A DNA stretch of 64,000 nt from Patescibacteria group bacterium (GTDB lineage Bacteria > Patescibacteriota > UBA1384 > CAJBMM01), in assembly GCA_041660565.1 (NCBI GenBank), contig JBAZWC010000001.1, forward strand, positions 302,481 through 366,480. The letters run 5' to 3'. The first letter of the stretch is position 1, and every line of letters begins with the position of its first letter. The notes beneath the pieces were generated by a model, which did not search any database, had not been told where the DNA came from, and saw only the letters and a program-made list of their open reading frames with translations. Below, in pieces: positions 24,362 to 63,970 of this stretch. The translations under genes and the position numbers were made by a program.

Positions 24362-24477
24362 GTAAATCACCTCCTCTCGAAGTCATTTATGCTTACTTAA
24401 GCTCATAGTAGATTGAGCGTACCACGCTTGTCAAGAGGGAGAATGCGCTAGCCTGTGGATAAGAGAGGTTTTTAACC

Positions 24478-24590
24478 TCAAAATTCTAAATTCTAAGCAC
24501 TAGATTCTAAACAAATTCAAATGTTTTGAATTTAGTGCTTCTGATTTGTTTCGAATTTCGGATATAGTGCTTCGTGCTTACCAGTTATGG
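24478..24590. repeat. repeat cluster of GAATTTAGTGCTT / TTCTAAGCAC units
   Basis: Related copies at 34113-34155, 49410-49500 and in-frame inside glyA at 55305-55425. Confidence 0.55.
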
Positions 24591-32846: not shown

Positions 32847-32887
32847 TTGGCTTAATTGGATTGATTGGACTAATTGGAAAATTTAAA

Positions 32888-34018: not shown

Positions 34019-34194
34019 ATCTAATACCTATTTGTATCTAGTTTTACAGATGTAATAGACGCTTGTCAAATTGGTCTGATTGGATTAATTGGAGCAATTG
34101 GATTGATTGGATTTGAATTTGTTTCGTATTTCGAATTTTGTGCTTAGTGCTTTGTTGACTTGCGCCAACTCGATCCTTAATTCATACTGATATT

Positions 34195-39610: not shown

Positions 39611-39662
39611 TCATTTAAAATTAGCAACCATTCATTTGAAATTGAAAATTGAAAATTGAAAA

Positions 39663-41395: not shown

Positions 41396-41486
41396 GACAA
41401 TTCAATATATCACACTCGGAATAACAAAAAAACGCCTTCCGCGCTGTTTAAAAATTTAAAATTTAAAATTTAAAATTTTGGAGATG

Positions 41487-41562
41487 TGGTAGCGGTGGGT
41501 AGAATTGAACTACCGACCTCGGCCTTATGAAGACCTTGCTCTAACCGCTGAGCTACACCGCC
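41487..41562 (-). tRNA. tRNA-Met/Ile2 (anticodon CAT), elongator type
   Basis: Manual fold: GGCGGTG acceptor, D, anticodon loop TTCATAA, TTCAATT T-loop, CCA encoded. Confidence 0.65.
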
Positions 41563-41576
41563 ATAAGTATTAAATT

Positions 41577-41651
41577 TGGTGGCGGGGGTAGGATTCGAAC
41601 CTACGACCTTGAGGTTATGAGCCTCACGAGCTGCCGCTGCTCCACCCCGCT
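41577..41651 (-). tRNA. tRNA-fMet initiator (anticodon CAT), A1·C72 unpaired, CCA encoded
   Basis: AGCGGGGTGGAGCAGC...CTCATAA...GGTTCGAATCC...CCCCGCCACCA, close to E. coli tRNAfMet. Confidence 0.65.
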
Positions 41652-41703
41652 ACATTATTTATATGTTACCATATTTTTATTTTTTTAGCAATCTATTTTT
41701 CTC

Positions 41704-41824
41704 GTCATTCCCGCGAAGGCGGGAATCCAGCCTATAATAAAATTCATATTTTTCTGGATCCCCGAATATAATGTCGGGACGCTTAGCGCCCCTAAGTCCC
41801 GCTTAGCGGGACGGGGATGACAAA
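41704..41824. repeat. composite repeat: GTCATTCCCGCGAAGGCGGGAATCCAGCCTATAAT + reverse copy of double-hairpin element
   Basis: Matches 9475-9490 and revcomp of 8657-8725. Confidence 0.65.
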
Positions 41825-41903
41825 GGGCATAACGTCGTTGACTCTATTTGAAGTAAGTGGTACAACTAACTTTGGAAACTTAATCGCTTCACGGGGGTGA
41901 GTG

Positions 41904-42652: not shown

Positions 42653-42710
42653 ACCGCCCAACTCACGCCCGTGGAGCCATCCGGCTCTGCGGGTTGCCTT
42701 TTTTGAGACC

Positions 42711-42795
42711 AGTTAGGGGGCTTAGGGAATTTTAGGGAAGTTAGGGGTACCATCGGCCCTCCCAATGCCCCTAATCACCCCACCCCCCCTAACCA
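42711..42795 (+). repeat. TTAGGG/CCCTAA palindromic element E1
   Basis: G-rich arm (ttaggggg cttaggg..ttaggg..ttagggg) then C-rich arm (ccctaa units). Confidence 0.7.
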
Positions 42796-42798
42796 CCT

Positions 42799-47460: not shown

Positions 47461-47555
47461 AATAAGGGGGCGTAAGGGTTGTAAGGGCAGTTGGGGGTGT
47501 CATAACCTCCCCTAACATCCCAAACTCCCCTAAACTCCCTAATCGTCCCCTCCCC
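47461..47555 (+). repeat. TTAGGG/CCCTAA palindromic element E2 (abuts ftsH stop codon)
   Basis: gtaaggg..gtaaggg..ttggggg / cccctaa..ccctaa..ccctaa. Confidence 0.7.
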
Positions 47556-49343: not shown

Positions 49344-49409
49344 CGTATCTCCTCGATGAGTTAATTGATAATGTTTAGTTATAATAGACGTAGTGTGGGG
49401 TCATAACGT

Positions 49410-49500
49410 ATTAAGCACTAAATTCTAAGCACTAAGCACTAAATAAATCCAAAATAAAAAATTCAAAAGTTTAGAATTTAGTATTTATAATTTAGAATTT
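49410..49500. repeat. TAAGCACTAAATTC / GAATTTAG repeat cluster
   Basis: taagcactaaattctaagcactaagcactaaat...tttagaatttagtatttataatttagaattt. Confidence 0.55.
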
Positions 49501-49526
49501 ATTTGCTATCGCGAGCGATAGCAAAT
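49501..49526. repeat. perfect 12-bp-stem hairpin atttgctatcgc-ga-gcgatagcaaat abutting tRNA-Lys 3' end
   Basis: Exact palindrome. Confidence 0.6.
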
Positions 49527-49604: not shown

Positions 49605-49649
49605 TAACGATAAAGATTATAACACAAAAGAAAGGGAATTGCCAAGACC

Positions 49650-49752
49650 GTTAGGGATTTTTAGGGAGTTTAGGGTTGTTAGGGTGGTTCCTTCCCTAAT
49701 TGGTCCCCCGCTCTCCCAATCACTCCAATCTCCCTAATTCCCCCAATTGCCC
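49650..49752 (+). repeat. TTAGGG/CCCTAA palindromic element E3
   Basis: ttagggatttttagggagtttagggttgttagggtggttccttccctaat...ccctaattcccccaa. Confidence 0.75.
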
Positions 49753-50919: not shown

Positions 50920-50920
50920 G

Positions 50921-51018
50921 GTGTGTTAGGGAGTTTAGGGTTGTTAGGGTGGTTCCTTCCCTAATAGGTTCTACGCTCTCCCAACATCCCTAACGTCCCT
51001 AACTACCCTAACCGTCCT
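50921..51018 (+). repeat. TTAGGG/CCCTAA palindromic element E4 (45-bp core identical to E3)
   Basis: ttagggagtttagggttgttagggtggttccttccctaat shared with E3. Confidence 0.75.
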
Positions 51019-51088
51019 TTTCCTATTGACCACAACGACTACTTATTCCATACTATACTTATAGATCAAATAATGTGGGGCAGGATAA

Positions 51089-51613
51089 ATGGGCGCAACA
51101 TCACCAAGTTGGGACGCAGTAATTGTATTAGTTTACGTTATTGGTGTTGGATATAGTCTAATTTTGCATCGAGAACGAATTGCCGGGCAAATTGCCTCGG
51201 CCTATATTTCATTGGCCGTTACCTCGGTTATCACCACTCCGGTGTATAATTTTTTACATCATAACAGCTTCTTAATGAATCAACTTTGGGTACAAAATGA
51301 CGCCACAACGCAAATGGTTTCGGGTCTGTTGTTTCTTGCTTTAACCATCATTCTTTCCAGCTTTCTGTCGGTGATACCAACCGGGCGAAAATCTGACAGC
51401 CTGTCTATGTTTGAGTCTACTTTGTTTAGCTTTTTGTGGGTAACGTTGTTAATTTCAACAATACTATCATTCCTACCGGTGGACAGATTGGTTTTATTTA
51501 GCAATCAGTCCAAACTCATCACTCTAATTTGGCAATATCACACCGCTTGGTTAATTATCCCGGCGTTTTTGTTAATTTACTCCGGCTTTAGACGCGGGAA
51601 TCTTAATTATTAG
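51089..51613 (+). CDS. hypothetical integral membrane protein
   Basis: ~5 TM helices. Confidence 0.4.
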   Translation: MGATSPSWDAVIVLVYVIGVGYSLILHRERIAGQIASAYISLAVTSVITTPVYNFLHHNSFLMNQLWVQNDATTQMVSGLLFLALTIILSSFLSVIPTGRKSDSLSMFESTLFSFLWVTLLISTILSFLPVDRLVLFSNQSKLITLIWQYHTAWLIIPAFLLIYSGFRRGNLNY

Positions 51614-51714
51614 ACCAATTAGGGAAATTAGGGTCATTTGGGACATTAGGGGTTCTTTCCCTAATAGGTTCTACACTATCCCAATCCCCCTAATCACCCC
51701 AATCTCCCAAATCG
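51612..51714 (+). repeat. TTAGGG/CCCTAA palindromic element E5
   Basis: aattagggaaattagggtcatttgggacattagggg...ccctaat...cccctaatcaccccaatctccc. Confidence 0.75.
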
Positions 51715-51760
51715 TTTTCCTGTTGTAAAAAAACTATTTTTCGTTTATAATATGGTTTAG

Positions 51761-52054
51761 GTGATTATGAACAATTTACAACTAAAGCAAATCTGTTTGG
51801 AAATTCAAAGCAATTTGCGTTGTGTACATTGTGGCAAGCCATATCAGGCTAACAATATTCACCTACGTAGCGCTTTTAAGAACAATTACTTGTTTCATTT
51901 AGTTTGTGAAAATCATAGCGCTATGGCCACCATCACCGTGGTTGGCGAAAAATCACAAAACGTCTTAAAGGTAGTTACGCCGGATGATGTAATGCAATTT
52001 AGAACTCAACTGTCCAAGTTCAAGGGTGATTTTAACAAAGTTTTTAAAAAGTAA
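51761..52054 (+). CDS. hypothetical protein (CVHCG...)
   Basis: Promoter TTGTAA-17-TATAAT and RBS AGGTGA upstream. Confidence 0.4.
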   Translation: MIMNNLQLKQICLEIQSNLRCVHCGKPYQANNIHLRSAFKNNYLFHLVCENHSAMATITVVGEKSQNVLKVVTPDDVMQFRTQLSKFKGDFNKVFKK

Positions 52055-52177
52055 TTCCTCCTCAACCGCCCTACGGGCACCTTCTCCTCCAGAGGAGAAG
52101 GGTTCCAAGGTTTTTCCCTCTCCTCCCTGAGGAGAGGGTGGCTGGAAGCCGGGTGAGGAGCCGACATAAGGAATAAT

Positions 52178-52864
52178 ATGAGCCTACAACTAAACGCAGA
52201 TACCCGCAAAATAACTGGCAAAAAAGTTAAGTCTATTAGACGTGACGGTCTAATTCCATTGGTAATGTATGGAAAAGGCTTGCCAACTCATCACCTGCAA
52301 TCCAACGCCAAACTGTTCTCCAAGTTATTTAAAGAAAGCGGTACCTCTAGCTTAGTTGATATTGCTATTGAAGACGCCAAACCAATTAAAGCTTTAATCA
52401 AATCGGTCAGCCTTGATCCGGTATCCAATGAAATTCTTCACGCTGACTTGTTACAGGTAAATATGAAAGAAAAAATCCGCACCGAAATTCCAATTGAATT
52501 TGTGGGTGATTCCAGTGTAGTTACCGAGCAAGATGGTAAATTGGTGTTCAACTTAGACGCTCTTGAGATTGAATGTTTGCCAGACGATTTGGTACCAAAC
52601 TTTGAAGTAAATGTTTCATCTCTAACTGAATTTGATCAAGCAATTCACGTATCTGACATAAAAATCCCAGACGGCATGGAAATTCTAACCGATCCGGAAT
52701 TGGTAATTGTAGTTGCGCAGGCTCCGTTAACCGAAGCTGAACTTGAAGCCGAACTAGCAGAGCCAGAAAAGACCGAGGAAGAGGCAGTCGCTGAAATGGC
52801 CGCCGAAGAACCAGCCGCCGAAGGTGAAGAATTGGGGGAAACCAAAGACGATTTGGGTAATTAG
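52178..52864 (+). CDS. rplY: ribosomal protein L25 / general stress protein Ctc with acidic C-terminal tail
   Basis: L25/Ctc fold pattern (…RRDGLIPLVMYGKG…). Confidence 0.8.
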   Translation: MSLQLNADTRKITGKKVKSIRRDGLIPLVMYGKGLPTHHLQSNAKLFSKLFKESGTSSLVDIAIEDAKPIKALIKSVSLDPVSNEILHADLLQVNMKEKIRTEIPIEFVGDSSVVTEQDGKLVFNLDALEIECLPDDLVPNFEVNVSSLTEFDQAIHVSDIKIPDGMEILTDPELVIVVAQAPLTEAELEAELAEPEKTEEEAVAEMAAEEPAAEGEELGETKDDLGN

Positions 52865-52946
52865 GGGCATTTGGGACATTAGGGTTCTTACCCTAATGAG
52901 TACCCCGCACCCCCAATCACCCTAATCTCCCTAATTCCCCAAACGT
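52855..52946 (+). repeat. TTAGGG/CCCTAA palindromic element E6 (overlaps rplY stop)
   Basis: ttaggggcatttgggacattagggttcttaccctaat...ccctaatctccctaattcccc. Confidence 0.75.
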
Positions 52947-52969
52947 TTTCTTTATGCTATATTGGCATT

Positions 52970-54736
52970 ATGAAACAAATACGCACAAACACACCCAAAA
53001 CCAAAGAAATGTCTTCTCAAATTGAGAAAATGCGCCACACTCTAAGCCACTGCTTAGCGGCTGCGGTGCTAAACTTGTATCCCAAAACCAAGCTGGGTAT
53101 AGGCCCGGTAATTGAAAACGGGTTCTATTATGATTTTCTGTTCGAATCTCCCCTATCACCCGACGATCTAATCAAAATCGAAAACGAGATGCGATCAGTT
53201 ATCAAACAAAAAATGTCTTTGCGCCAATTTAATTTGAGCCGCGATGAAGCATTGGCAAAGGAAAAAGATCAACCATTCAAATTTGAATTGATTAAAGACC
53301 TAGGCGATAAGGAATTAAGTTTTTATAGCTTGGAATCCCCCAATCAACCCAATTCTTTCGTTGACCTCTGCGCTGGGCCGCACCTTGAATCTACCGACCA
53401 AGTTGGCGCGTTTAAGCTAACCCATCTTGCCGGCGCATACTGGAAAGGTGACGAAAAAAATCAGATGCTCACCCGTATCTACGGCGTAGCGTTTGAGACC
53501 CAGGAAGAACTAGACCAATACCTCAAGCAAATCGACGAAGCCACCAAACGCGATCATCGCAAATTAGGTGTAACGCTTGATCTATTTACCTTTTCCGACC
53601 TCGTTGGTGCCGGTTTGCCATTGTGGACACCAAAAGGGACTATTGTTCGCGATTTACTTGATGATTTTGTGTGGAGTTTGCGTCGTGCTAAGGGATACGA
53701 AAAAGTGGAAATCCCCCACATCACCAAAAAAGATTTATATGTTAAAAGTGGGCACTGGGATAAGTTTAAGGACGAATTATTTAGAATTAACACCCGTGAA
53801 GGCCACGAATTTGCGATGAAGCCAATGAACTGCCCACACCACACTCAAATTTTTGCCCGCAAAAGTTGGAGCTACAAAGAAATGCCGCAACGCTACGCCA
53901 ACACTACGTTTGTGTATCGTGATGAGCAAACCGGTGAATTAAACGGACTGTCCCGCGTTAGAGCCATCACTCAAGACGATGCCCACGTGTTTTGCCGCGA
54001 AGACCAGATAAAAGACGAGATACTGGCAATCTGGGATATTGTAGATGATTTTTATGGTAAATTTGGCATCAAAACAGCTGCTCGTCTATCACTTGGCGAC
54101 CAATCTCAACCAGATAAATATCTTGGTGATGCCAAAACCTGGGATAAAATGGAAAACACGTTACGAGAAGTAGTCAAAATCAAAAAAACCACCGCATCTG
54201 AGGCTATTGGTGAAGCGGCGTTTTACGGGCCAAAAATTGACTTTATGGGTATTGATTCCTTGGGCCGAGAGTGGCAAGTGGCAACCATCCAACTGGATAT
54301 GAATATGCCAACGCGATTTGGCTTGAGTTTCACCAATGCTGACGGCCACGATGAGACCCCAATTATGATTCACGCCGCCATTATGGGCTCAATTGAACGA
54401 TTCATGTCCATTTTAATTGAACATTACGCCGGCGTATTTCCGGTCTGGCTAGCGCCGGTGCAAGCGGTGGTGGTACCAATTGCAGATCGGCATAACGGCT
54501 ATGCCACTACCATTGTCGATCAGTTAAAAGCAAGTGGAGTTCGGGTTAACCTAGACCTCAGACGTGAGACTTTGGGCAAAAGAATCCGAGATCTAGAAAT
54601 GCAAAAAGTGCCTTTTGTCTTGGTTATTGGCGATAAAGAAGTCGAATCAAAGAAAATTGCCGTCCGCTCCCGTGATGATGGCGACCTCGGAGCAAAAAGC
54701 GTAAAAGAACTTATAAAGACCAATTTTCAATTTTAA
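52970..54736 (+). CDS. thrS: threonyl-tRNA synthetase (588 aa, short N-terminus)
   Basis: Class II aaRS motifs, editing-domain HxxxH region, anticodon-binding domain. Confidence 0.9.
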   Translation: MKQIRTNTPKTKEMSSQIEKMRHTLSHCLAAAVLNLYPKTKLGIGPVIENGFYYDFLFESPLSPDDLIKIENEMRSVIKQKMSLRQFNLSRDEALAKEKDQPFKFELIKDLGDKELSFYSLESPNQPNSFVDLCAGPHLESTDQVGAFKLTHLAGAYWKGDEKNQMLTRIYGVAFETQEELDQYLKQIDEATKRDHRKLGVTLDLFTFSDLVGAGLPLWTPKGTIVRDLLDDFVWSLRRAKGYEKVEIPHITKKDLYVKSGHWDKFKDELFRINTREGHEFAMKPMNCPHHTQIFARKSWSYKEMPQRYANTTFVYRDEQTGELNGLSRVRAITQDDAHVFCREDQIKDEILAIWDIVDDFYGKFGIKTAARLSLGDQSQPDKYLGDAKTWDKMENTLREVVKIKKTTASEAIGEAAFYGPKIDFMGIDSLGREWQVATIQLDMNMPTRFGLSFTNADGHDETPIMIHAAIMGSIERFMSILIEHYAGVFPVWLAPVQAVVVPIADRHNGYATTIVDQLKASGVRVNLDLRRETLGKRIRDLEMQKVPFVLVIGDKEVESKKIAVRSRDDGDLGAKSVKELIKTNFQF

Positions 54737-54775
54737 ATTTCCAATTTTTAATGAAAAGATAGCCAATTTTTAAAT

Positions 54776-54838
54776 GACTAAATAAGGAACCATTTAAAAT
54801 TTAATCATTCGGTACTCATTCATTAATAATTTAAAATT
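54776..54838. repeat. ~65-bp repeat, inverted partner of 39541-39610
   Basis: See 39541. Confidence 0.6.
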
Positions 54839-54883: not shown

Positions 54884-56359
54884 ATGAGTAACGCAACAGA
54901 CATTTTGCAGCTAATCAAACTTGAAGAAACGCGCCAACAAGAAGGCATGGAGCTAATTCCGTCTGAAAATTACGCGTCTAAGAACATTCGCGGCGCTTTG
55001 GGCTCGGTTTTAACCAATAAATATTCCGAAGGCTATGCTGGCGCACGTTATTACGGTGGCCAAGAGGTCATTGACCAAATTGAAACCAAGGCCATTGAAC
55101 TTGCTCGGCAACTGTTCAAATATCAATTTGTAAACGTGCAACCATATTCCGGCACACCGGCCAATTTAGCGGTTTATAATGCTTTGTTACAACCGGGCGA
55201 TACTATACTTTCGATGGCGCTTGATATGGGCGGCCACCTAAGCCACGGACACAAACTTAGTTTACCGGGAAAACTTTATAATATTGTTAGTTATGGACTA
55301 CATGAAGAAAATTCGAAAAACGAAATACGAAATACAAAACAAATCCAAAATTCAAAAAAAGAAATTCAAAAAAATGGTACTTTTCGTGCTTCGGATTTCG
55401 AATTTAGTGCTTATGATGCCGGACGCATAGATTACAATCAAGTTGCAGAATTAGCCAAAACCCATAAGCCAAAACTGATTGTTGCTGGTGGTAGTGCGTA
55501 TCCTTATATAATAGATTTTAAGAGATTCAGAGAAATTGCCGACAGCGTTGGTGCTATTTTGATGGTAGATATGGCGCATATTGCCGGACTAGTGGCTGGT
55601 GGCGTGCACCCATCACCCTACCCGTATGCGCACGTTGTAACCTCAACCACCCATAAGACAATGCGCGGGCCAAGAGGTGGATTTATTTTGACCGATGATG
55701 AAGAAATGGCAAAAAAAATTAACCGCGCAGTTTTTCCCGGAATTCAAGGCGGCCCGCACGATAATAACATTGCCGGTATTGCCATTTGCTTTGCCGAAGC
55801 CCTAGATCCAGAGTTTAAGGACTATGCCAAACAAGTTATTCTTAACGCAAAAGCCTTAGCAGATACTGTAGGGGCACCGTCCTCGCTACCGCATCGGATG
55901 ACCGGTGGTCAACATGAATTGCCCGAGGTTCCAGCCATGGCGGGCGGACATATGAGTCCGCCCCTACACCCCCTAAAAAGAAATTCCTTCAATTCAAATT
56001 TCAAATTTCAAATTTCAAATTGTCCTCCCTCTAATTGGAACCCAACCACAGAGAATCACCTACTCTTACTAGACGTCACGCCTTTTGGCCTAGGTGGCTT
56101 ACGCGCCCAAGATCTACTAGACAGCGTTGGCATTACTGTAAATAAACAAGTTTTGCCGGGTGATACCAGAAAACCGGCCGACCCATCGGGTATTCGGCTT
56201 GGATCACCGGCAATGACTACCAGAGGATTCAAAGAAGAACAATTTAACCAAACCGGAAAATGGATTATTGACGTATTATCAAATCCGGAAGACCTTAAGT
56301 TGCACCGCGCTATTCACCAAGAGGTAAAAGCACTGTGTAAAAGGTTCCTGGTGCCTTAG
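54884..56359 (+). CDS. glyA: serine hydroxymethyltransferase with two in-frame insertions derived from repeat elements (~38 aa at 55305-55425; ~43 aa at 55912-56045)
   Basis: SHMT signature incl. PLP-Lys region TSTTHKTMRGPRGG; protein ~75 aa longer than typical; inserts carry GAATTTAGTGCTT repeat and hairpin ggcgggcggacatatgagtccgcccc + (ttcaaat)4. Confidence 0.85.
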   Translation: MSNATDILQLIKLEETRQQEGMELIPSENYASKNIRGALGSVLTNKYSEGYAGARYYGGQEVIDQIETKAIELARQLFKYQFVNVQPYSGTPANLAVYNALLQPGDTILSMALDMGGHLSHGHKLSLPGKLYNIVSYGLHEENSKNEIRNTKQIQNSKKEIQKNGTFRASDFEFSAYDAGRIDYNQVAELAKTHKPKLIVAGGSAYPYIIDFKRFREIADSVGAILMVDMAHIAGLVAGGVHPSPYPYAHVVTSTTHKTMRGPRGGFILTDDEEMAKKINRAVFPGIQGGPHDNNIAGIAICFAEALDPEFKDYAKQVILNAKALADTVGAPSSLPHRMTGGQHELPEVPAMAGGHMSPPLHPLKRNSFNSNFKFQISNCPPSNWNPTTENHLLLLDVTPFGLGGLRAQDLLDSVGITVNKQVLPGDTRKPADPSGIRLGSPAMTTRGFKEEQFNQTGKWIIDVLSNPEDLKLHRAIHQEVKALCKRFLVP

Positions 56360-56458
56360 GGGAATTAGGGACATTAGGGTGATTGGGGGGACAAGGTACC
56401 ATTAGGGTTTTGGTTCCCCCAATGTCCCAAATTTCCCTAATGCCCCCAACCGTCTTTC
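56357..56458 (+). repeat. TTAGGG/CCCTAA palindromic element E7 (perfect G4 motif GGGGaattaGGGacattaGGGtgattGGGGGG); overlaps last codons/stop of 56437..56982
   Basis: Direct reading. Confidence 0.75.
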
Positions 56459-56982
56459 CTCTTTTGGTCTTTTCTGGCATTAAAAAGTTTTTCACTATAA
56501 CCGCCTTCAGTTTTAAACTTTTCTTCTAGGGAAAGAAGCTGTTTATCTAATAAAAAGGTGGTTAAACTTACAAAGGTTACTAACATATTAGCCGCTAGAG
56601 TTGGGTCATTCGGAAAATTAGGTGTATTCAAGGTGTTTTCAGTTACCCAAATTGCCCTAAACTCTCTAAAAACCCTTACATTTTGGTCGTCCTTGCTAAA
56701 CAAAGGCAAATTTCTCTGTCTCAGAAAATCTTGGAAGTCTAACAACAGCTCCTCTTGGGACGCTTTTGCAACGCCCACCAGTTTTATATAACTCTTTAAT
56801 GACTTTTCCATATAACCTTCAGCTATGTTTTGCCTACCGCTGCGCGCCGCTTGCACCATTTGTTCAACCAGCCTACTGTTTTCTCTGCTATTAACAAACT
56901 GTTTGCAAAATTTGACTGTTAAATCATATACAACAGTCGCCATCATAAAGGAAGCTAGTGTTTTATAACCAGGCTGGGCCAT
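56437..56982 (-). CDS. four-helix-bundle protein of the 23S rRNA intervening-sequence protein family
   Basis: Motif SGRQNIAEGYMEKS...ASQEEL matches NIAEG...S.EL signature. Confidence 0.55.
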   Translation of the reverse strand: MAQPGYKTLASFMMATVVYDLTVKFCKQFVNSRENSRLVEQMVQAARSGRQNIAEGYMEKSLKSYIKLVGVAKASQEELLLDFQDFLRQRNLPLFSKDDQNVRVFREFRAIWVTENTLNTPNFPNDPTLAANMLVTFVSLTTFLLDKQLLSLEEKFKTEGGYSEKLFNARKDQKRKDGWGH

Positions 56983-56991
56983 GGTTCCTTT

Positions 56992-57112
56992 CTTAGGGGA
57001 ATTAGTAGGCCAATTGGGGGAATTAGGGTCATTTGGGTCATTGGGGGTTCCACCCCTAATTGGTTTATTGTTCCCCCAATCTCCCTAATCTCCCCAAGCC
57101 CCCTAACCGTTT
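56992..57112 (+). repeat. TTAGGG/CCCTAA palindromic element E8 (abuts stop of giant gene)
   Basis: ttaggggaattagtaggccaattgggggaattagggtcatttgggtcattggggg...ccctaat...ccctaaccg. Confidence 0.75.
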
Positions 57113-57115
57113 CTC

Positions 57116-60100
57116 TTATTTAACTCTAACGGTTCCGCCGCCGTTTACACGCACCGAACCAGAGTTTACCCGCACCCCAGAGTAGTTTGCCGCTTTAGTA
57201 CTAGCGGTGTCATCTACCGGAAAACCGGCCAGACCGGCAGGCCAGGCACCGGCATCAGTGCCAACAATGGCAAGACCCCCTAAGCCCAAACCTAAGCTAC
57301 TTACGCTATTTGAAGGCAAACTGGAATTTGCCGTGGTGTAAAAAACAATTTGTTTTTGCGTAGCTAACGAAATACTGGTTACCCCACTTGCCGTGCCGAC
57401 CCAAAGGGCAGATTGGTTCTTAACCGGTGAGCCGGTGGACCAGGTGGGATCGTCTGAGGCAACGGAAGAGTTGGCACCAAGAGTGCCGTTGTACCCTAAG
57501 CCAGAGGAATCAGCCGCAACTTGCCCGGAGCCTTCATTAAGCTTCCACCAACCGAGAATATTGGCGGATGGATTATCAGTCCTACCAAGCCCGCCGTTAT
57601 AGAGGGCAGCTACTTCGGCACCAGTTATTGCCCTTGAGTAGATACGCACATCATCAATTGATCCATTAATAAATGCAGAAGATCGGCCAATTTCTAAGGT
57701 ACCATTAGCCGTATTCAAAGTTTCAGTTGCAGTCCCGGAAACCATTCCATCCATATAAATTGTTTGGCTGCTTGCGCCACTAACAAGTACAATATGATGC
57801 CAAGCACCATCATCGACACTATTCGTCGTGGTGGCAGAACCGGCATCGGTACCATCAACAGCGCAGTTCATTTTATGTGCAGTCACACCAGCAATTTTAC
57901 ATATTCGGTTGGCAGCCCACCTAAGGGCTCCGCCACTGTTTGTGGTAGTTTTAATCCAGAATGATTCAGTTATCGCCGATTGACCTGGAATTGATCCGGT
58001 GATGACATAGTCAGATCCATCAAAGGTTAAATCTTCCCCCAAATCCCCTGTTTTCATCAACCCCACCGACGTAGCACTGGCCGAGGTGCCACCGATAGCA
58101 GGAGAAACGCGCATGGGATCGGTAGTGGTAACGGTAGCGTCAGCACCCAGAGTACCGTTGTTGGCGTTACCGGAAGAATCGTACACGGTCTGCCCATTTA
58201 TCCCATTAGCCCCACCGTACCGTTCGTCCAGGTGCCAAAGGCCAATGGTGTTTGCATCTGTGGTAAAAGGAACAACAGTGGGAGTAAAATATTTCGTATT
58301 AAGAACTGTCCCCGAATAACGTATTGAATTAGAAATACGCACTTCATCAATTGGACCGTTAAACCTTCCGGCTGAGGGACTACCACTTCCAATATATAGC
58401 GTTTCAGATGAGGTGTATTTGATATTTGCATTCATGTTACAATTGGCACGTAAAGTTCCATCCACAAATATCCTATATTTAAGATTGGATTGATCAATAG
58501 TACCGGCAACATGATGCCATACGCCATCGGCCTGTGAGCTATTAGTAGGACATTCTTCAGTTACCCCATACTGATTCACAAAAAATAAGGTGACTGTGCC
58601 ATTTGAAGACCATCTGTTCATCCGAAAGCCGTACGCACCATAGTTTAATGGGTAAATAGAACTACCAGATGTTGTATTAAACCACATCTCTATAGTAAAA
58701 ACGGTTGGTCTCAAACCGGCATTACCTGCAACCGGAACATAATCATCAGTTCCGTCAAACATAAGCGCGTTACCAAATGACTTGCTGTTGTAGTTTGATG
58801 TTCCGGTGGAGCCAGTGTTAACGTAATGCTCCACAAAACCACTAGCTTGGGTAGAGTGTTCCTGGATGGTTTCAACACCTAAGTTCGTACCAAGAGCAAC
58901 AGTGTTGCTGGTATTATCTGCAAGAGATGTACCGGTGGTGACAGATATGGAATTAATGGTATTGGAACGCAGAGCAGGGGTGGAAGCGGTGGAATAGGTA
59001 ACATCTGCTGTTCCTACTTGGTCGGCGGTGTCTGCATTTACAGCTGTGTAAACATCTAACCCGGCGTGAGTGGTATTAGCACCGTATACCGTGCCAGCAT
59101 TGGTCATAAATACTTTGGTATAGGTGTCTGAGGCGGTTGGGGCATATTTGTACATTGGTGAATCGGTGGGTGCATTGTTGTTAAGACCTATTCCGGTTAA
59201 GTTATTCAAGACATTTAAGTCAGAGGCGGTGGCAAGCGCAACGTATTGTTTTGGAGGAGCTGTGCCTATTACAGTAGGTGAAATATCATTAACGGTAGTG
59301 GAGTTAAGAGCAGTTCCACCAGCTGCGGGATACGCCGAGGCGGCACCACGATTAGCTAGAGTAGATTGATAAATTGAATTGCCAGATGAAGTAAATCGTA
59401 AAGCGGTATCATCATCTAACCGAATATCGGTTAAACCATCAGCGCTGGCAACGTAAATACGACCGTTTAGAGCTTTTACCTTGAGTGTATTATTTGAGCC
59501 GATTAAATTATTACTGGCTTTGGCAAAGCGCGCCCACAGTTTGTTAGTTGATGCGTCTATGATGTCGAGGCCACCGTTGTTGGCCACCAAATTAGTTTTT
59601 GAAGGATAACTACGGAGTTTACCACGGGTTGTACCAAAGGATTCGATAGCCAAGGCGTTGATGCGGTAGGTGTCGTAGGTGGAATAGTTTCCTTGAGGGT
59701 TCCAACGTACGTAGATTCCGGTGGCACCAAGCTGTTGGAGGGAGGAAGAGATCTGTTGTCGGGTGGACCAGGCGTCTAAGGTGGGAGTGGGGCCACCGGT
59801 AGAACCTCGGTACTGGTAGAAGACCGGAGTTTCTTGCTCCACGATGGCGGAGTAAGCGGCTACCGTGGGCTCTGTTGTGGCGTGGAGGAGAGAGTTGTTG
59901 GTGACCCAGTTGGAGGTTGAGTTGAAGCCAAAGTTAGTAAGGGTACCATTGTTGCCTGAGCCGGATGAGTCTACGGCGGTGGTTCCGGCAGCGGTGGTAT
60001 CGTCTAGTTTCCACCAACCAACTAGGCCGGAGTTGGAGACATAGGGAGTGTTGGTGTAAAGAGCTGATGCTTCTGTAGCGCTAATAGATCGACTGTATAT

Positions 60101-63100
60101 TCGGACATCATCAAGCTGACCGTTTAGGTAATTTTGATAATTTGCTGGAACACCTCTCACCCCAAGGGAAAGGTAATTAACCGTATCGACACCAAATGTT
60201 GTGGTCTGAGTTAGCGATCCTTGGTTTAAGGAGCCATCAATATAGATACTAATCGTATTATTGCCAATTACACTTGTATCGGTAGTAATTACGGCTGATA
60301 CCTGGTGCCAGTTACCATCATTCAAGCTCGAACTACTTGAAGATCGCGACATACTATTTCCACTCCCTGTTCCATCTTTTGTACTCACAATTATGATCCC
60401 GGCGTTGATTTTTACCCCCCACCCACCAGTGGAGGCCAAATAGTCTCCTTTAGCCACCAGTGTTTGTAGGGAGGCACTTGCAGTTTTAAACCACGTAGAA
60501 ACGGTAAAAGTCGTGTTTGCAAAGCGATAGGGTGTTTCGTTTGTTACGGCGATATAATCATCCGATCCATCAAACTTCAGACCATACGAATTATAGGAAA
60601 GCGCACTGGATTTTTCGTTGAGGTTGCCATAGTAAAGGTAGTAATCAGCATCAGTACTAGAGGCAGCAATAGGAGCGATGGTCTTGAACTGGGTTTGGTT
60701 GATAGAGTCTACCTTGCCACCGTTGGTGACCCAGGTTCCGGCGTGACCGGTCATATCGCCGTTGTTAGTACCAGTTTGATCTATTACGGTGTTGCCGGTA
60801 CCATCGTCCATATGCCAGAGTCCGGCGGTGTACTGATCTTTGGCAAAAGGCGTAGTTTGCGGGGTAAAGTTACTTCTATACCGTACTCTACTACTGACTC
60901 TCACTTCGTCAATCTGACCGTTCCAAAACCTACTGCCAGAACTCACTTTTTGACGACCGATTATCAAAGCTCCGGTTGAAGCAGCACCTGCCGTAAACAA
61001 ACTGGAACTACCTTGATAAACACCATCAATATATAATTGTAATTTTCCATTCGTGTACGTGCATCCTAAATGCGCCCACGTTCCAATTGATACGGTACTA
61101 CCGTAGGCACTAACACTAGCATCTGAACTATTTCTCATCGCGCAGTAGTACTTTGCTGTGCCGCTTACATCAGCTATACCAAATTGATACGGTGGGTTTG
61201 ACGGTCCTCCACCCTCATCTTTACTGACGGCGGTCTGTAAAGCACCTGATCCGGGTGTCGGAACGGTGTTAGTTTTTAACCAAGCTTCGTATGTTCGATC
61301 TCCAGTTGTGTTAAGGGATGCGTTGTTGGGAATAGTAACGTAGCTACTGGTGCCATTAAAACTAACCGTGTGGCCGTGGGGGAGGAAGCGGGGAACTTCC
61401 TGGGTGGTGGAGATGGCACCGTCGGTGGACCAGGTGGGGGAGTTGGTAAATACACCGTTGTTTTGGTTACCAGACGAATCGGCGGCGATTGTACCGGAGC
61501 CTTCATCGAGGTGCCAGAGGCCAACAGTGTTTGCATCAGAAACAAAAGGAGTTGTGCGAGGTATGAATGTTCCATTGTATCGAGCAATGTTTGAGATTCG
61601 AAATTCATCCTCAATACCACCGAAGCCATAGCTAGTGCCTAGGTTCATCAAGAGTAGGTCTGTTGCTGAGGGCAGATATGCAGAGTAGGTAGCTGAACCA
61701 TCAAGTTGTCCATTTAAGTACATTTTAAGGGTATTGGCCGAACCATTTCCAGAAATTGCTAAGTGATACCAAATGTTAGGGTCGATTATGTGAGATCCCG
61801 ATATATTACGATAACTAGTACCGGTTCCAATGTGACAGAACATTTTCTGTGAATAAAAATTACAGCCAAACCCATCATGAGAGGATACCGGATTTCCTTT
61901 GGAAAATAGGTATGTACCGAAATCGGAATCAGTTTTTTTGAACCACAATTCAAAGGTATAGTTGGCTGAAAGAGAGGCATCAACATTAGCTGGAATTGTA
62001 ATTGATTCGTTTGAGTTACTAGTTGTAGAAACGCCACTGGTGGTAAGTGCGGGTTGGTAGACGATGCGGGTGTCGTTGCCATCTGAACGCATTTGGTTGT
62101 TATCCATCAAAGTACCACGGTTGGTGGTTGACTCCACGCCGTAGCCCGGGGCGAGGATGGAAGCGACGTTATTGGTAAGATTGAGTTTTTGGCGGAATTG
62201 GTAGCCTGGGAGGGCCCAATTGGAAGATGTGTTCATAGACTGGATTCCCGCCTGCGCGGGAATGACACCATCGGTCCAGAGGGGTCCGTTGGTGGTGCCA
62301 TCGGCAGCTGGGGAGTTGGTACTTCCATTCATGAGGGTGCCGGTGTTGCCGTTACCGGAGGAGTCTACAGGGGTAGTGCCGGTAGCATCGTCAAGGTGCC
62401 AGAGTCCTACCGTTGACGCATCGGTGGCAAAGCGGCGGGAGGGGGTGAAGTTGGAGGTATAGCGGGCAGTGTTAGAGATACGGACTTCGTCAATTTGACC
62501 GGTCCAAAAATAATTATCTCCGTTGGGATTACTTGCCAGTTTAGTATTATCAATGCTTATTGCCGATCCTGAACCAGCAGTAAACGCATCTAATGCGCCA
62601 TTTATGTATAGGCTTAAACCAGCGCTATTATACACACCTGCAACATGGTACCATTGATTGACGCTAATAGTGGTGGCGCCTTGTGCAATGGTACCACCTT
62701 GGACAAATCGAAATTTTGTGCCATTTCTATCAAGGTACATTTTCTCTGATCCTGCCAGACTTGAATCAATAATTTTAATATACGCTCCACCTACTGTGCT
62801 AGTACGAACCCAAGCCTCAAAGGTTATCGTACTACTATTCAAAGATAGGCTTTGTGTCGTATAGTCATTACTCCCATCAAACTGCAGGCCACTGGACGGG
62901 ACGGTTTTAACCTCGTAAGACTTTTTGGAGGTGGTGGAGGATTGGGCACCAAGGGTTAAGTTGCCTGCTCCGGTTTTGCCACCTGGGGTATTGAAGCTTG
63001 GGGTATCGGGGTTATCCCCCACAAACCCATCCATAATGGCGTTAGAGCCGGAGACAAAGATAGGACCGTTGGCTGAGCCATCGGCAGCGGGAGAGTTGGA

Positions 63101-63970
63101 AGCGCCGTTCATCAACGTTCCAGTATTAGCGTATTGGGATGAGTCTTTGACATAGCAAGGGTTGGCGGCTTCACAGGAGCCTTCATCAAAGTGCCAGAGA
63201 CCAACGGTATTGGCATCTTCCGATAACCGACGAGAAGGAGTGAAGTTTGTGGTGTATCGTGCGGTATTGCTAATTCTAGCTTCATCATAATATGCACTAG
63301 TTGAAGAACTACCGGAGCTATTTGCCGCAAACGTCATTGCTCCTGTGCCAGTATTAGTTGGGCAATTTACAATAGACCTGGTTGAACCAGCTTGACTGCC
63401 GTTTTTATACAACTTTAAGGTCTTATCATTCTGATTGATAACATAAGCTAAATGCTGCCAAGCATTGGCTGTAGCGGAGGCTTGGGCGTTATCAGCGCAA
63501 GCTGTACTCCCAGAATAAAAAGTAATGCTAAACATGCCCGCTGCGTACAAGACATACAGTTTATTGTTTGATCCATTATTCTTAATAAAAACATAACCGG
63601 TTGTATTAATTGGTTTGATCCACATTTCCACCGTATAACTACCACTTCCCGGTCTAAGTGATTCAGAGTCAGGTATCGTAACATAATCATCACTCCCATC
63701 AAACTTAAGGGCGCTGGACTTTCGGGTGATGCCGTTCTGCCAGTTTGGATCAATACCTAACTGTTGTTGAGTGTCGGGACTGGAGTCCTGGGATGTATCA
63801 TAAAGGGTAGTGTCGTTGACGGTGTTGGAAGCTAGGTGGGTATTGCCATCGGCATCGGTAGAGGAGGAGGTGTAGGCACCCGATACCGGGGAACTAAGGT
63901 TGGGAATGGTGCCAATTATGATAGCAAAGACGAGGAGAACGGCAGTGGCGGCCGTCAAACCCCGCGGCAA
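57116..63970 (-). CDS. giant (2284 aa) surface protein: N-terminal signal/TM + at least 8 LamG-like (concanavalin A-like lectin, Laminin_G_3-type) repeats, each L(K/Q)FDG(S/T)DDY...DE(V/A)RISN(T/S)ARY...(L/V)GLWH(L/F)DEG
   Basis: Repeated motifs LKFDGSDDYVTIPD, LQFDGSNDY, VSFNGTSSYVTIPN, LMFDGTDDYVPVAG, LTFDGSDYVITGS and DEVRISNTARY / DDVRIYSRAI(T/S) ends; antisense ORFs judged artifacts. Confidence 0.8.
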   Translation of the reverse strand: MPRGLTAATAVLLVFAIIIGTIPNLSSPVSGAYTSSSTDADGNTHLASNTVNDTTLYDTSQDSSPDTQQQLGIDPNWQNGITRKSSALKFDGSDDYVTIPDSESLRPGSGSYTVEMWIKPINTTGYVFIKNNGSNNKLYVLYAAGMFSITFYSGSTACADNAQASATANAWQHLAYVINQNDKTLKLYKNGSQAGSTRSIVNCPTNTGTGAMTFAANSSGSSSTSAYYDEARISNTARYTTNFTPSRRLSEDANTVGLWHFDEGSCEAANPCYVKDSSQYANTGTLMNGASNSPAADGSANGPIFVSGSNAIMDGFVGDNPDTPSFNTPGGKTGAGNLTLGAQSSTTSKKSYEVKTVPSSGLQFDGSNDYTTQSLSLNSSTITFEAWVRTSTVGGAYIKIIDSSLAGSEKMYLDRNGTKFRFVQGGTIAQGATTISVNQWYHVAGVYNSAGLSLYINGALDAFTAGSGSAISIDNTKLASNPNGDNYFWTGQIDEVRISNTARYTSNFTPSRRFATDASTVGLWHLDDATGTTPVDSSGNGNTGTLMNGSTNSPAADGTTNGPLWTDGVIPAQAGIQSMNTSSNWALPGYQFRQKLNLTNNVASILAPGYGVESTTNRGTLMDNNQMRSDGNDTRIVYQPALTTSGVSTTSNSNESITIPANVDASLSANYTFELWFKKTDSDFGTYLFSKGNPVSSHDGFGCNFYSQKMFCHIGTGTSYRNISGSHIIDPNIWYHLAISGNGSANTLKMYLNGQLDGSATYSAYLPSATDLLLMNLGTSYGFGGIEDEFRISNIARYNGTFIPRTTPFVSDANTVGLWHLDEGSGTIAADSSGNQNNGVFTNSPTWSTDGAISTTQEVPRFLPHGHTVSFNGTSSYVTIPNNASLNTTGDRTYEAWLKTNTVPTPGSGALQTAVSKDEGGGPSNPPYQFGIADVSGTAKYYCAMRNSSDASVSAYGSTVSIGTWAHLGCTYTNGKLQLYIDGVYQGSSSLFTAGAASTGALIIGRQKVSSGSRFWNGQIDEVRVSSRVRYRSNFTPQTTPFAKDQYTAGLWHMDDGTGNTVIDQTGTNNGDMTGHAGTWVTNGGKVDSINQTQFKTIAPIAASSTDADYYLYYGNLNEKSSALSYNSYGLKFDGSDDYIAVTNETPYRFANTTFTVSTWFKTASASLQTLVAKGDYLASTGGWGVKINAGIIIVSTKDGTGSGNSMSRSSSSSSLNDGNWHQVSAVITTDTSVIGNNTISIYIDGSLNQGSLTQTTTFGVDTVNYLSLGVRGVPANYQNYLNGQLDDVRIYSRSISATEASALYTNTPYVSNSGLVGWWKLDDTTAAGTTAVDSSGSGNNGTLTNFGFNSTSNWVTNNSLLHATTEPTVAAYSAIVEQETPVFYQYRGSTGGPTPTLDAWSTRQQISSSLQQLGATGIYVRWNPQGNYSTYDTYRINALAIESFGTTRGKLRSYPSKTNLVANNGGLDIIDASTNKLWARFAKASNNLIGSNNTLKVKALNGRIYVASADGLTDIRLDDDTALRFTSSGNSIYQSTLANRGAASAYPAAGGTALNSTTVNDISPTVIGTAPPKQYVALATASDLNVLNNLTGIGLNNNAPTDSPMYKYAPTASDTYTKVFMTNAGTVYGANTTHAGLDVYTAVNADTADQVGTADVTYSTASTPALRSNTINSISVTTGTSLADNTSNTVALGTNLGVETIQEHSTQASGFVEHYVNTGSTGTSNYNSKSFGNALMFDGTDDYVPVAGNAGLRPTVFTIEMWFNTTSGSSIYPLNYGAYGFRMNRWSSNGTVTLFFVNQYGVTEECPTNSSQADGVWHHVAGTIDQSNLKYRIFVDGTLRANCNMNANIKYTSSETLYIGSGSPSAGRFNGPIDEVRISNSIRYSGTVLNTKYFTPTVVPFTTDANTIGLWHLDERYGGANGINGQTVYDSSGNANNGTLGADATVTTTDPMRVSPAIGGTSASATSVGLMKTGDLGEDLTFDGSDYVITGSIPGQSAITESFWIKTTTNSGGALRWAANRICKIAGVTAHKMNCAVDGTDAGSATTTNSVDDGAWHHIVLVSGASSQTIYMDGMVSGTATETLNTANGTLEIGRSSAFINGSIDDVRIYSRAITGAEVAALYNGGLGRTDNPSANILGWWKLNEGSGQVAADSSGLGYNGTLGANSSVASDDPTWSTGSPVKNQSALWVGTASGVTSISLATQKQIVFYTTANSSLPSNSVSSLGLGLGGLAIVGTDAGAWPAGLAGFPVDDTASTKAANYSGVRVNSGSVRVNGGGTVRVK
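62234..62268. repeat. hairpin element CATAGACTGGATTCCCGCCTGCGCGGGAATGACAC inserted in frame in giant LamG gene (encodes GVIPAQAGIQSM)
   Basis: Matches 9462-9490 family. Confidence 0.7.

What the first reader, a model, noticed from the sequence alone, without database searches (positions are those of the whole stretch)
55305..56045. Essential glyA carries two in-frame ~120-bp repeat-element insertions
Compared with canonical ~415-aa serine hydroxymethyltransferase, this SHMT has two extra segments. The first is HEENSKNEIRNTKQIQNSKKEIQKNGTFRASDFEFSAYDAGR, between the conserved YG(L/I) and IDY. Its DNA contains the GAATTTAGTGCTT repeat family seen intergenically at 24478, 34113 and 49410. The second is …QHELPEVPAMAGGHMSPPLHPLKRNSFNSNFKFQISNCPPSNWNPT… between SGG and TDNH. 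Its DNA contains the hairpin ggcgggcggacatatgagtccgcccc and (ttcaaat)x4. The reading frame and all catalytic motifs are intact. These are RPE-like selfish elements tolerated in surface loops of an essential enzyme.
Basis: partly seen in the sequence, partly recalled or inferred. Interest (0 to 1): 0.65.

Follow-up and report, generated by a model that had tools for sequence, protein, structure and literature searches.

The report
Repeat DNA inserted in-frame in glyA
In an uncultured Patescibacteria genome, the gene for the housekeeping enzyme serine hydroxymethyltransferase carries two stretches of intergenic-type repeat DNA that keep the reading frame, a known kind of event (as in Rickettsia) not reported for this lineage in the papers I searched.

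Summary
glyA (54884-56359, +) is an intact SHMT gene. Its 409-aa core matches the length of its relatives (405-426 aa). Two extra in-frame, stop-free blocks interrupt it. Insert 1 (55307-55417, 111 nt, 27% GC) is a heptamer-periodic imperfect palindrome. Insert 2 (55910-56047, 138 nt) has a GC hairpin, a CCCTAA-type module and (TTCAAAT)x4.

- **Uniqueness:** None of the 120 best SHMT homologues has either block. No protein among 5.8 billion clusters resembles the insert peptides.
- **Insert 1 origin:** It aligns significantly with three intergenic elements in the window and with one in a related genome.
- **Insert 2 origin:** It matches intergenic repeats only module by module.
- **Placement:** Both fall in low-confidence loops of an otherwise SHMT-like model.
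- **Wider pattern:** Two close relatives carry different hairpin-forming extras at site 1. Obg and a giant surface protein in this window also carry in-frame palindromic repeats.

The "RPE-like" reading holds as an analogy, not as family membership. I found no target-site duplication, no full-length second copy and no transposase in the window. Translation and independent assembly could not be checked. I rate it a new variant of a known kind, of moderate interest.

The parts
54884..56359 (+). glyA (serine hydroxymethyltransferase) CDS, 491 aa from the ATG. An alternative TTG start lies at 54872.
   Evidence: Pfam SHMT E 1.1e-136. 66-69% identity to the closest homologues outside the inserts.
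55307..55417 (+). Insert 1: 111 nt, 27% GC, heptamer-periodic imperfect palindrome. It encodes ENSKNEIRNTKQIQNSKKEIQKNGTFRASDFEFSAYD. The boundaries are good to within a few nt.
55309..55332 (+). Left arm of the insert 1 inverted repeat (AAATTCGAAAAACGAAATACGAAA).
   Evidence: pair I1: 24-nt arms, 83% complementary, 49 nt apart. The fold is shown.
55382..55412 (+). Right arm of the insert 1 inverted repeat (55382-55405), running into the GAATTTAGTGCTT family motif (55400-55412).
55910..56047 (+). Insert 2: 138 nt, 45% GC mosaic. It encodes QHELPEVPAMAGGHMSPPLHPLKRNSFNSNFKFQISNCPPSNWNPT. An alternative split into two smaller insertions either side of 'AMAGG' is not excluded.
55942..55963 (+). 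GC hairpin GGGCGGAC-ATATGA-GTCCGCCC inside insert 2.
55962..55979 (+). CCCTACACCCCCTAAAAA module. It resembles the CCCTAA arms of the TTAGGG/CCCTAA intergenic hairpins.
   Evidence: 16 of 18 match with 49640-49746, z 4.0.
55993..56020 (+). (TTCAAAT)x4 heptamer tract inside insert 2.
   Evidence: It is similar to AT-rich heptamer tracts at 39623-39681, 11306-11368 and 41437-41493.
24470..24585 (.). Intergenic copy E1 of the AT-rich modular palindrome family (AAGCACT / AGTGCTT / TTCGAAT modules).
   Evidence: z 5.6 against insert 1.
34075..34160 (.). Intergenic copy E2 of the same family, between divergent genes.
   Evidence: 26 of 30 match, z 9.2.
49400..49505 (.). Intergenic copy E3 of the same family. 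It aligns with insert 1 over about 77 nt and with the L002 element over about 95 nt.
   Evidence: z 6.3; z 10.3.

Best explanation
glyA of this Patescibacteria genome is a functional SHMT gene. At two points it has acquired short pieces of the hairpin-forming, heptamer-periodic repeat DNA that otherwise fills this genome's intergenic regions. Insert 1 is a member of an AT-rich modular palindrome family. Insert 2 is a mosaic of a GC hairpin, a CCCTAA-type module and an AT heptamer tract.

Both inserts are multiples of three and free of stops. The ribosome therefore most likely reads straight through them, giving an SHMT with two extra low-complexity, probably disordered loops:
- 37 aa after the strand at residues 133-137 of the PLP-binding domain;
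- 46 aa in the hairpin turn before T(D/E)NH at the start of the C-terminal domain.

Selection on the enzyme has acted as a filter. Only insertions that preserve the frame and sit in tolerant loops survive.

**Shown:** the inserts exist, they are absent from all homologues, they look like repeat DNA, they are compatible with the frame, and they sit in low-confidence model regions.

**Inferred:** they are translated, they are neutral and tolerated, and they arrived by insertion (transposition in trans, or recombination or template switching from another copy) rather than growing in place.
For: - **Extra segments in an intact gene:** (409-aa core).
- **Unique among homologues:** among the 120 best homologues the site-1 span is 51-55 aa, except 61 in P0002 and 68 in P0003, against 88 here. 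The site-2 span is 57-61 aa against 105 here.
- **No protein-level conservation:** no protein among 5.8 billion clusters resembles the insert peptides.
- **Heptamer periodicity:** tracts with lag-7 periodicity occur at only 6 places in the window. Four are intergenic or at gene ends, and two are the glyA inserts.
- **Insert 1 belongs to a family:** it aligns with E1, E2 and E3 at z 5.6-9.2 and with an element in a related genome. It has 24-nt inverted arms.
- **Frame compatibility:** the reading frame is stop-free in only 2.5% and 11.6% of shuffles, and both lengths are divisible by 3. The joint probability is about 3e-4.
- **Structure model:** the model matches solved SHMTs (target-normalised TM-score 0.83). 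The inserts have pLDDT below 50, between a strand (133-137) and a helix (184-194), and between a helix (309-330) and a strand (393-397).
- **Site 1 is a recurrent hot spot:** P0002 and P0003 are 85% identical to each other, yet they carry different hairpin-forming extras there (z -5.1 and -2.9).
- **Other genes in the window:** Obg (7126-7191) and the giant surface protein (62240-62266) contain in-frame copies of intergenic GTCATTCC...GGAATGAC-type palindromes.
Against: - No full-length second copy of either insert was found in the 64 kb. The similarities are 22-77 nt, or module by module.
- Insert 2 has no terminal inverted repeat.
- There is no target-site duplication at either insert (p 0.58 and 0.76).
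- No transposase or RAYT-like gene appears among the 48 window ORFs scanned against Pfam.
- The hairpin stability of insert 1 is only modestly above shuffles (z about -1.8).
- There is no independent assembly, read support, transcript or peptide evidence. The exact protein is not in the protein collection, although the neighbouring ThrRS is.
- Surface exposure is inferred from a low-confidence model. Site 2 lies next to a highly conserved GG-TDNH turn.
Confidence: 0.7

Rival explanations
1. The inserts grew in place. Short heptanucleotide seeds in two tolerant loops expanded by replication slippage and fold-back template switching, as with low-complexity expansions in other genomes. No pre-formed element was inserted.
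For: - Both inserts have strong 7-nt periodicity.
- Similarity to other loci is modular rather than full-length.
- There is no target-site duplication.
- Insert 2 has no terminal inverted repeats.
- No transposase was found in the window.
- Site 1 varies in length and content between close relatives.
Against: - Insert 1 shares module order over about 77 nt with E3, and about 47 nt with an element in another genome. Independent slippage should not reproduce this.
- Insert 2 combines unrelated modules (GC hairpin, CCCTAA module, AT tract).
- Neither insert length (111 or 138 nt) is a multiple of 7.
Confidence: 0.15
2. Assembly artefact. Repeat-rich reads were wrongly threaded through glyA in the metagenome-assembled genome.
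For: - An independent short-read assembly of the same organism breaks exactly at repeats flanking this region. The Logan contig equals window 50936-54789 at 100% identity and ends in the AT-rich repeat upstream of glyA.
- The glyA protein is absent from the protein collection.
Against: - Two independent misjoins would both have to be in frame and stop-free (joint probability about 3e-4).
- Both would also have to fall exactly at loop positions of the fold.
- Relatives from other assemblies also carry hairpin inserts at site 1.
Confidence: 0.05
3. The segments are lineage-specific functional protein extensions, selected for what the peptide does (for example new interactions), not tolerated repeat DNA.
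For: - The reading frame is preserved.
- Insert 1 is predicted to be helical, with a heptad-like K/E/N/Q pattern.
- Site 1 is also extended in two relatives.
Against: - There is no protein-level conservation anywhere.
- Relatives at 85% identity carry unrelated sequences at site 1.
- At the DNA level the inserts share palindromes and motifs with intergenic elements.
- The inserts have low complexity and pLDDT below 50.
Confidence: 0.07
4. The inserts are removed or skipped before the protein is made, by an intein, a self-splicing intron or programmed translational bypass.
For: There is a stable GC hairpin in insert 2. By analogy, hairpin elements are bypassed in some mitochondrial genes (my own knowledge, not tested here).
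Against: - Pfam finds no intein domain, and 37 and 46 aa are far too short for one.
- No Rfam family matches, and 111 and 138 nt are too short for group I or II introns.
- Bypassed elements need not be in frame or stop-free, yet both of these are.
Confidence: 0.03

Closest known systems
Rickettsia palindromic elements (RPE; Ogata et al. 2000, as summarised in PMC10969869)
   Same: Both are short (about 100-150 bp) palindromic repeats found both between genes and inside unrelated housekeeping genes. Both are inserted in frame, so the host protein gains a peptide without losing function. Several families coexist in one small genome.
   Different: The host is a different phylum (Patescibacteria), and no sequence relationship was tested. 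RPE families have conserved full-length consensus sequences and a conserved element-encoded peptide. Here similarity is modular and heptamer-periodic, no conserved peptide exists, and insert 2 has no recognisable family copy.
Bacterial MITEs that make in-frame fusions (ERIC, BOX, Correia and cyanobacterial MITEs; review PMC10969869)
   Same: Both are small non-autonomous repeats with inverted repeats. They are mostly intergenic and occasionally lie within genes with an open frame.
   Different: The features that define a MITE were not found. There is no target-site duplication, insert 2 has no terminal inverted repeat, and no cognate transposase lies in the window.
Cyanobacterial STRR heptanucleotide repeats (own knowledge; the literature search only listed papers that mention them)
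   Same: Both are tandem heptanucleotide repeat tracts that populate intergenic DNA. To my knowledge, STRR tracts can also sit inside a functional gene (cyanobacterial RNase P RNA).
   Different: The heptamers and the phylum differ. Here the tracts form inverted arrays (palindromes) and lie inside a protein-coding frame, so they generate 7-residue peptide periodicity.
Coding palindromes in Nematomorpha mitochondrial genes (PMC6649704)
   Same: In both cases inverted repeats are embedded in essential protein-coding genes that remain functional.
   Different: In Nematomorpha both arms encode conserved parts of the protein under amino-acid selection. Here the palindromes are extra, non-conserved sequence placed in loops.

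Membership tests
Serine hydroxymethyltransferase (glyA) | The SHMT fold and the Pfam PF00464 domain across the whole protein | tested here: met
   Pfam E 1.1e-136. PDB phmmer E 7.7e-130. The model matches SHMT structures with target-normalised TM-score 0.83.
Serine hydroxymethyltransferase (glyA) | Catalytic and PLP-binding residues retained (TTHKT lysine, GGHLSHG, DMAH, the RYYGG tyrosines, the substrate arginine) | tested here: met
   All columns invariant among the 12 relatives are kept in the query. The only deviation is TDNH to TENH, next to insert 2.
Rickettsia palindromic elements (RPE) | Sequence homology to an RPE family consensus | not testable with these tools
   No RPE consensus library was available. 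The host is a Patescibacteria MAG. Rfam gave no match, but I did not check whether Rfam holds RPE models.
Rickettsia palindromic elements (RPE) | Palindromic, hairpin-forming element of about 100-150 bp | tested here: inconclusive
   Insert 1 has 24-nt arms, 83% complementary, but its fold z-score is only -1.8. Insert 2 has only an internal 8-bp hairpin (z about -2.5).
Rickettsia palindromic elements (RPE) | Many dispersed copies with a conserved full-length sequence and a conserved encoded peptide | tested here: not met
   Within 64 kb the matches are only 22-77 nt or modular. No protein shares the insert peptides. The rest of the genome could not be searched.
Rickettsia palindromic elements (RPE) | In-frame insertion in housekeeping ORFs that is compatible with translation | tested here: met
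   The inserts are 111 and 138 nt and stop-free in the host frame. Obg and a surface protein show the same with other elements.
MITE | Terminal inverted repeats | tested here: inconclusive
   Present in insert 1 and absent in insert 2.
MITE | Target-site duplication flanking the element | tested here: not met
   Junction-to-junction alignments are no better than shuffles (p 0.58 and 0.76).
MITE | A related autonomous IS or transposase able to mobilise it | tested here: inconclusive
   None appears among the 48 window ORFs scanned against Pfam. The window is only about 64 kb of the genome.
Intein | Intein splicing domain with nucleophile and HN junction residues, at least about 130 aa | tested here: not met
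   Pfam finds no intein domain. The inserts are 37 and 46 aa, and the junction residues are E...D and Q...T.
Self-splicing intron (group I or II) | Match to an intron RNA family, and sufficient length | tested here: not met
   No Rfam match at E up to 1, apart from three chance-level hits far below the gathering scores. The inserts are 111 and 138 nt.
STRR-like heptanucleotide repeats | Tandem 7-nt periodicity | tested here: met
   The lag-7 scan flags both inserts (55308-55359 and 55989-56034) and four intergenic tracts.
STRR-like heptanucleotide repeats | The cyanobacterial STRR consensus heptamers | not tested
   The heptamers here (CGAAATA, TTCAAAT, AGTGCTT) appear to differ from the STRR consensus as I recall it. 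No formal comparison was made.

The most novel reading that the evidence does not exclude
This Patescibacteria lineage may have an undescribed process that repeatedly seeds hairpin-forming or heptamer-periodic intergenic repeat DNA into coding regions of essential genes. The mechanism leaves no target-site duplication. Candidates are hairpin-targeted single-strand transposition or template switching at replication.

Hits are reused at the same permissive loops. SHMT site 1 differs in three lineages, and Obg and a surface protein are also affected. The result would be a steady supply of new disordered protein segments in otherwise minimal genomes.
Probability: 0.3. Interest if true: 0.7.

Novelty: new variant of a known kind. 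Interest (0 to 1): 0.52.

Why it matters
In-frame colonisation of housekeeping genes by small palindromic repeats is best known from Rickettsia. Finding the same outcome in a Patescibacteria (CPR) genome would show that the phenomenon is not a rickettsial oddity. The case here involves non-homologous, heptamer-periodic elements, more than one element family, at least three affected genes in 64 kb, and a loop of SHMT that has been hit differently in three related lineages.

There are practical consequences:
- Such inserts can make annotation pipelines mis-score essential genes as aberrant or as pseudogenes.
- They break short-read assemblies.
- They inflate apparent protein novelty in CPR genomes.

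The case also gives natural data on where SHMT tolerates insertions. One such position is next to the highly conserved GG-TDNH turn.

Tried and rejected
- **Closer relatives or an insert-free allele.** The protein search found nothing closer than 66-69% identity. The genome-contig scan was swamped by conserved SHMT patterns and returned only distant SHMTs (43-48% identity). The metagenome scan with a glyA 20-mer found only an unrelated SHMT at 40% identity.
- **Independent assembly.** Exact look-ups of glyA and of the neighbouring PF05635 protein found nothing. ThrRS matched a Logan contig that stops upstream of glyA.
- **Insert peptides in other proteins.** None were found.
- **Target-site duplications.** None were found.
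- **Compensated frameshift just upstream of insert 2.** 'YRI' reads in the +1 frame, giving YRIVTGG if two bases are removed. An HMM built from the relatives favours this by only about 6 bits over the in-frame reading, and favours the alternative 'AMAGG' anchoring by about 3 bits. This is too weak to decide, so the exact left boundary of insert 2 stays ambiguous.
- **Signals inside the inserts.** No promoter, terminator or Rfam signal was found.
- **Transposase or RAYT gene in the window.** None were found.
- **Literature on such inserts in Patescibacteria or CPR.** Nothing relevant turned up. One search on RPE was lost to the retinal-pigment-epithelium homonym.

Full report
**What is there**

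The ORF at 54872/54884-56359 (+) is serine hydroxymethyltransferase: Pfam PF00464 at E 1.1e-136, and E about 1e-130 to solved SHMTs. Against T. thermophilus SHMT it aligns in three blocks. Query 7-142 matches chain 9-144, 178-330 matches 144-296, and 389-462 matches 307-380. There is therefore a pure insertion of about 35 residues after the YGL strand. A 58-residue stretch also stands where homologues have 10 residues before T(D/E)NH.

The 12 closest usable homologues are 405-426 aa long and 57-69% identical outside the gaps. None has either block. Cutting out 55307-55417 (111 nt) and 55910-56047 (138 nt) leaves a 409-aa core, the same length as the relatives. Every column that is invariant among the relatives is kept in the query. 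The only deviation is that the near-invariant TDNH reads TENH, next to insert 2.

**Is it unusual?**

I measured two spans in the 120 best homologues.
- From GGH(L)SHG to SAY, which contains site 1, the span is 51-55 aa in 114 of 116 proteins. It is 61 in P0002, 68 in P0003 and 88 here.
- From FPGxQGGP to TDNH, which contains site 2, the span is 57-61 aa in all 110 measurable proteins. It is 105 here.

A search of 5.8 billion protein clusters with the two insert peptides plus short flanks returned nothing at E up to 1. The segments therefore show no protein-level conservation anywhere.

**Nature of the inserted DNA**

The window's intergenic regions are crowded with short repeat families:
- hairpins built from TTAGGG/CCCTAA-type heptamers, placed just after stop codons;
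- AT-rich palindromes built from AAGCACT/AGTGCTT/TTCGAAT heptamer modules;
- AT-rich heptamer tracts;

A lag-7 periodicity scan flags only six places in 64 kb. Four are intergenic or at gene ends, and the other two are exactly the two glyA inserts.

Insert 1 is 27% GC against 46% for the glyA core. It has 24-nt inverted arms, 83% complementary. It aligns with three intergenic elements: 24470-24585 (20 of 22, z 5.6), 34075-34160 (26 of 30, z 9.2) and 49400-49505 (about 77 nt, z 6.3). The 13-mer GAATTTAGTGCTT, with up to 2 mismatches, occurs 12 times against 2.2 expected. The same element type is found in a related genome at L002 16020-16190, which aligns with the window's 49400-49505 element at z 10.3 and with the left arm of insert 1 at z 4.3. 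That genome's SHMT is P0002, 68% identical.

Insert 2 is a mosaic of four parts:
- an 8-bp GC hairpin (55942-55963);
- a CCCTACACCCCCTAAAAA module that matches 16 of 18 positions in a CCCTAA-type element;
- (TTCAAAT)x4, which resembles AT heptamer tracts at 39623, 11306 and 41437;
- a CTAATTGG module.

I found no full-length relative of insert 2.

**Compatibility with translation**

Both lengths are divisible by three. The host frame is open through both inserts, whereas only 2.5% (insert 1) and 11.6% (insert 2) of base-shuffled versions are stop-free. Jointly this is about 3e-4. Only one of six frames is open in insert 2, and two of six in insert 1. This argues that the gene is under selection to be read through. 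It also argues against random misassembly.

No promoter-like or terminator-like site falls inside either insert, and there are only chance-level Rfam matches there. Pfam finds no intein domain.

**Position in the fold**

An AlphaFold model built on the 13-sequence alignment has mean pLDDT 71 and pTM 0.75. It matches solved SHMTs with target-normalised TM-score 0.83. Residues 142-177 and 332-387 have pLDDT below 50.
- Insert 1 lies between strand 133-137 and helix 184-194. By my reading of the fold-type-I sheet order (recalled, not measured here), 133-137 is the edge strand.
- Insert 2 lies between the long helix 309-330 and strand 393-397, in or at the hairpin turn that opens the C-terminal domain.

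That these are solvent-exposed loops far from the PLP site is an inference from the topology and from length variation among homologues. I did not measure it. The left boundary of insert 2 is ambiguous. Both 'RMTGG' and 'AMAGG' could stand for the canonical xVISGG strand, and an HMM cannot separate the alternatives, which differ by 3-6 bits.

**Wider pattern**

P0002 and P0003 are 85% identical to each other. At site 1 they carry different, unalignable extras of about 30 and about 51 nt. Both fold into hairpins: ATTGGACC-AATG-GGTCCAAT at z -5.1, and a 14-pair stem at z -2.9. The P0002 hairpin shares its ATTGGACCAA motif with the neighbouring intergenic spacer. Site 1 has therefore been hit independently in at least three lineages.

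Other genes in the window are affected too.
- Obg (6457-7503, -) has a block of about 26 aa that solved Obg structures lack. The block contains a 66-nt GTCATTCC...GAATGAC palindrome at 7126-7191.
- The 2284-aa surface protein reads VIPAQAGIQ across a 27-nt copy (62240-62266) of an element also found intergenically at 9482 and 41704.
- ORF 40682-41395 contains half of a GC-rich element resembling a MITE.

**Mechanism**

The best reading is that intergenic-type repeat DNA was copied into two tolerant loops of glyA, and that it survives because it preserves the frame. How it moved is unknown. I found no target-site duplication, insert 2 has no terminal inverted repeats, and none of the 48 window ORFs scanned encodes a transposase. 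Growth in place by slippage of heptamer seeds remains a live rival, mainly for insert 2.

**Provenance and limits**

The neighbouring ThrRS is identical to MFA6082129.1 from a Patescibacteria group MAG, on a 516-kb contig. An independent Logan contig from SRR18595301 equals window 50936-54789 and breaks inside repeats on both sides. The glyA protein itself is not on record.

No closer relative, insert-free allele or second assembly could be found. Read support, translation and genome-wide copy number therefore remain untested.

**Comparison with known systems**

The closest analogue is the Rickettsia palindromic element phenomenon (PMC10969869). The outcome is the same, but family membership is not supported: there is no conserved consensus or encoded peptide, and the phylum differs. 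The criteria for a MITE are only partly met. The heptamer periodicity recalls cyanobacterial STRR repeats. I found no report of such inserts in Patescibacteria in the held literature.

**Verdict**

This is a real feature. It is a new variant of a known kind, of moderate interest (0.52).

Noticed in passing
window 7126-7191 (-), inside Obg 6457-7503: A 66-nt palindromic element (GTCATTCCGGACTTGATCCGGAATCCAG...GAATCCCGCCTGCACGTGAATGAC) lies in frame within the essential GTPase Obg. Query residues 100-132 replace 7 residues of T. thermophilus Obg. Related elements are intergenic at 9419, 16210 and 41704.
   Followed up: partly
window 62240-62266 (-), inside the 2284-aa ORF 57116-63970: GTCATTCCCGCGCAGGCGGGAATCCAG is read in frame as VIPAQAGIQ within the giant surface protein. 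Near-identical elements lie in the intergenic regions 9202-9562 and 41396-41888.
   Followed up: partly
window 40847-40909 (-), inside ORF 40682-41395: Half of the GC-rich 'GTCATTTCGAC...GTCGAAATGAC' element is in frame in a 237-aa ORF with no Pfam match. Full copies are at about 17121-17275, 22373-22495 and 24029-24149. The ORF may be real with an insert, or spurious.
   Followed up: no
window 42700-42798, 47470-47555, 49640-49746, 50920-51020, 51614-51715, 52865-52950, 56360-56455, 56990-57115: Long imperfect hairpins have one arm of (NTTAGGG)n-like heptamers and the other of (CCCTAAN)n. They sit directly after stop codons of most genes in the 42-57 kb region, including right after the glyA stop. 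They may be terminator-like or G-rich structured elements. The heptamer resembles a telomere repeat.
   Followed up: no
L002 10418-10465 and L087 1619-1681 (glyA of relatives P0002 and P0003): Two SHMTs that are 85% identical carry different hairpin-forming in-frame extras at the same loop as insert 1. The P0002 hairpin motif ATTGGACCAA recurs in the adjacent spacer, L002 9592-9632.
   Followed up: yes
window 56437-56982 (-); L001/L002 9633-10004; L087 630-1157: A PF05635 (23S rRNA intervening-sequence protein) four-helix-bundle gene sits next to glyA in the window and in both related lineages. A giant surface protein is also adjacent in the window and in L001/L002. I recall this family being linked to diversity-generating retroelements, but I did not look for one.
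   Followed up: no
window 55868-55909: Just upstream of insert 2, the +1 frame reads GHRPRYRIG. Deleting two bases would give YRIVTGG, which is closer to the canonical strand. This may be a compensated frameshift, but HMM support is only about 6 bits. The adjacent TDNH motif reads TENH.
   Followed up: partly
whole glyA, 54884-56359: The exact SHMT protein is absent from the 15-billion-sequence collection, although the adjacent ThrRS of the same MAG is present as MFA6082129.1. The gene may have been set aside as a pseudogene by the depositor's annotation because of the inserts.
   Followed up: no
window 55316-55378: Because three 7-nt units make 21 nt, the heptamer DNA repeat is translated into a 7-residue peptide periodicity (NSKNEIR / NTKQIQN / SKKEIQK). 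The model draws this as a low-confidence helix.
   Followed up: no
window 16143-17285: A 1.1-kb stretch, seemingly more GC-rich than its surroundings by eye, has no ORF of 100 aa or more. It lies between gyrB and the DUF4012 gene and is flanked by repeat elements. It may be a decayed gene or foreign DNA.
   Followed up: no
window 24454-24462: A perfect DnaA-box 9-mer (TGTGGATAA) lies immediately beside the AT-rich palindrome at 24470-24585. About 0.5 such boxes are expected by chance in 64 kb, so this may mean nothing.
   Followed up: no
window 37333-37372 and 32832-32871: GGAATGAC/GTCATTCC-type elements overlap the 3' end of tsaE (37340-37789, -) and the annotated 5' end of sufB (31467-32846, -). 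Gene ends here may be formed or mis-called because of the repeats.
   Followed up: no
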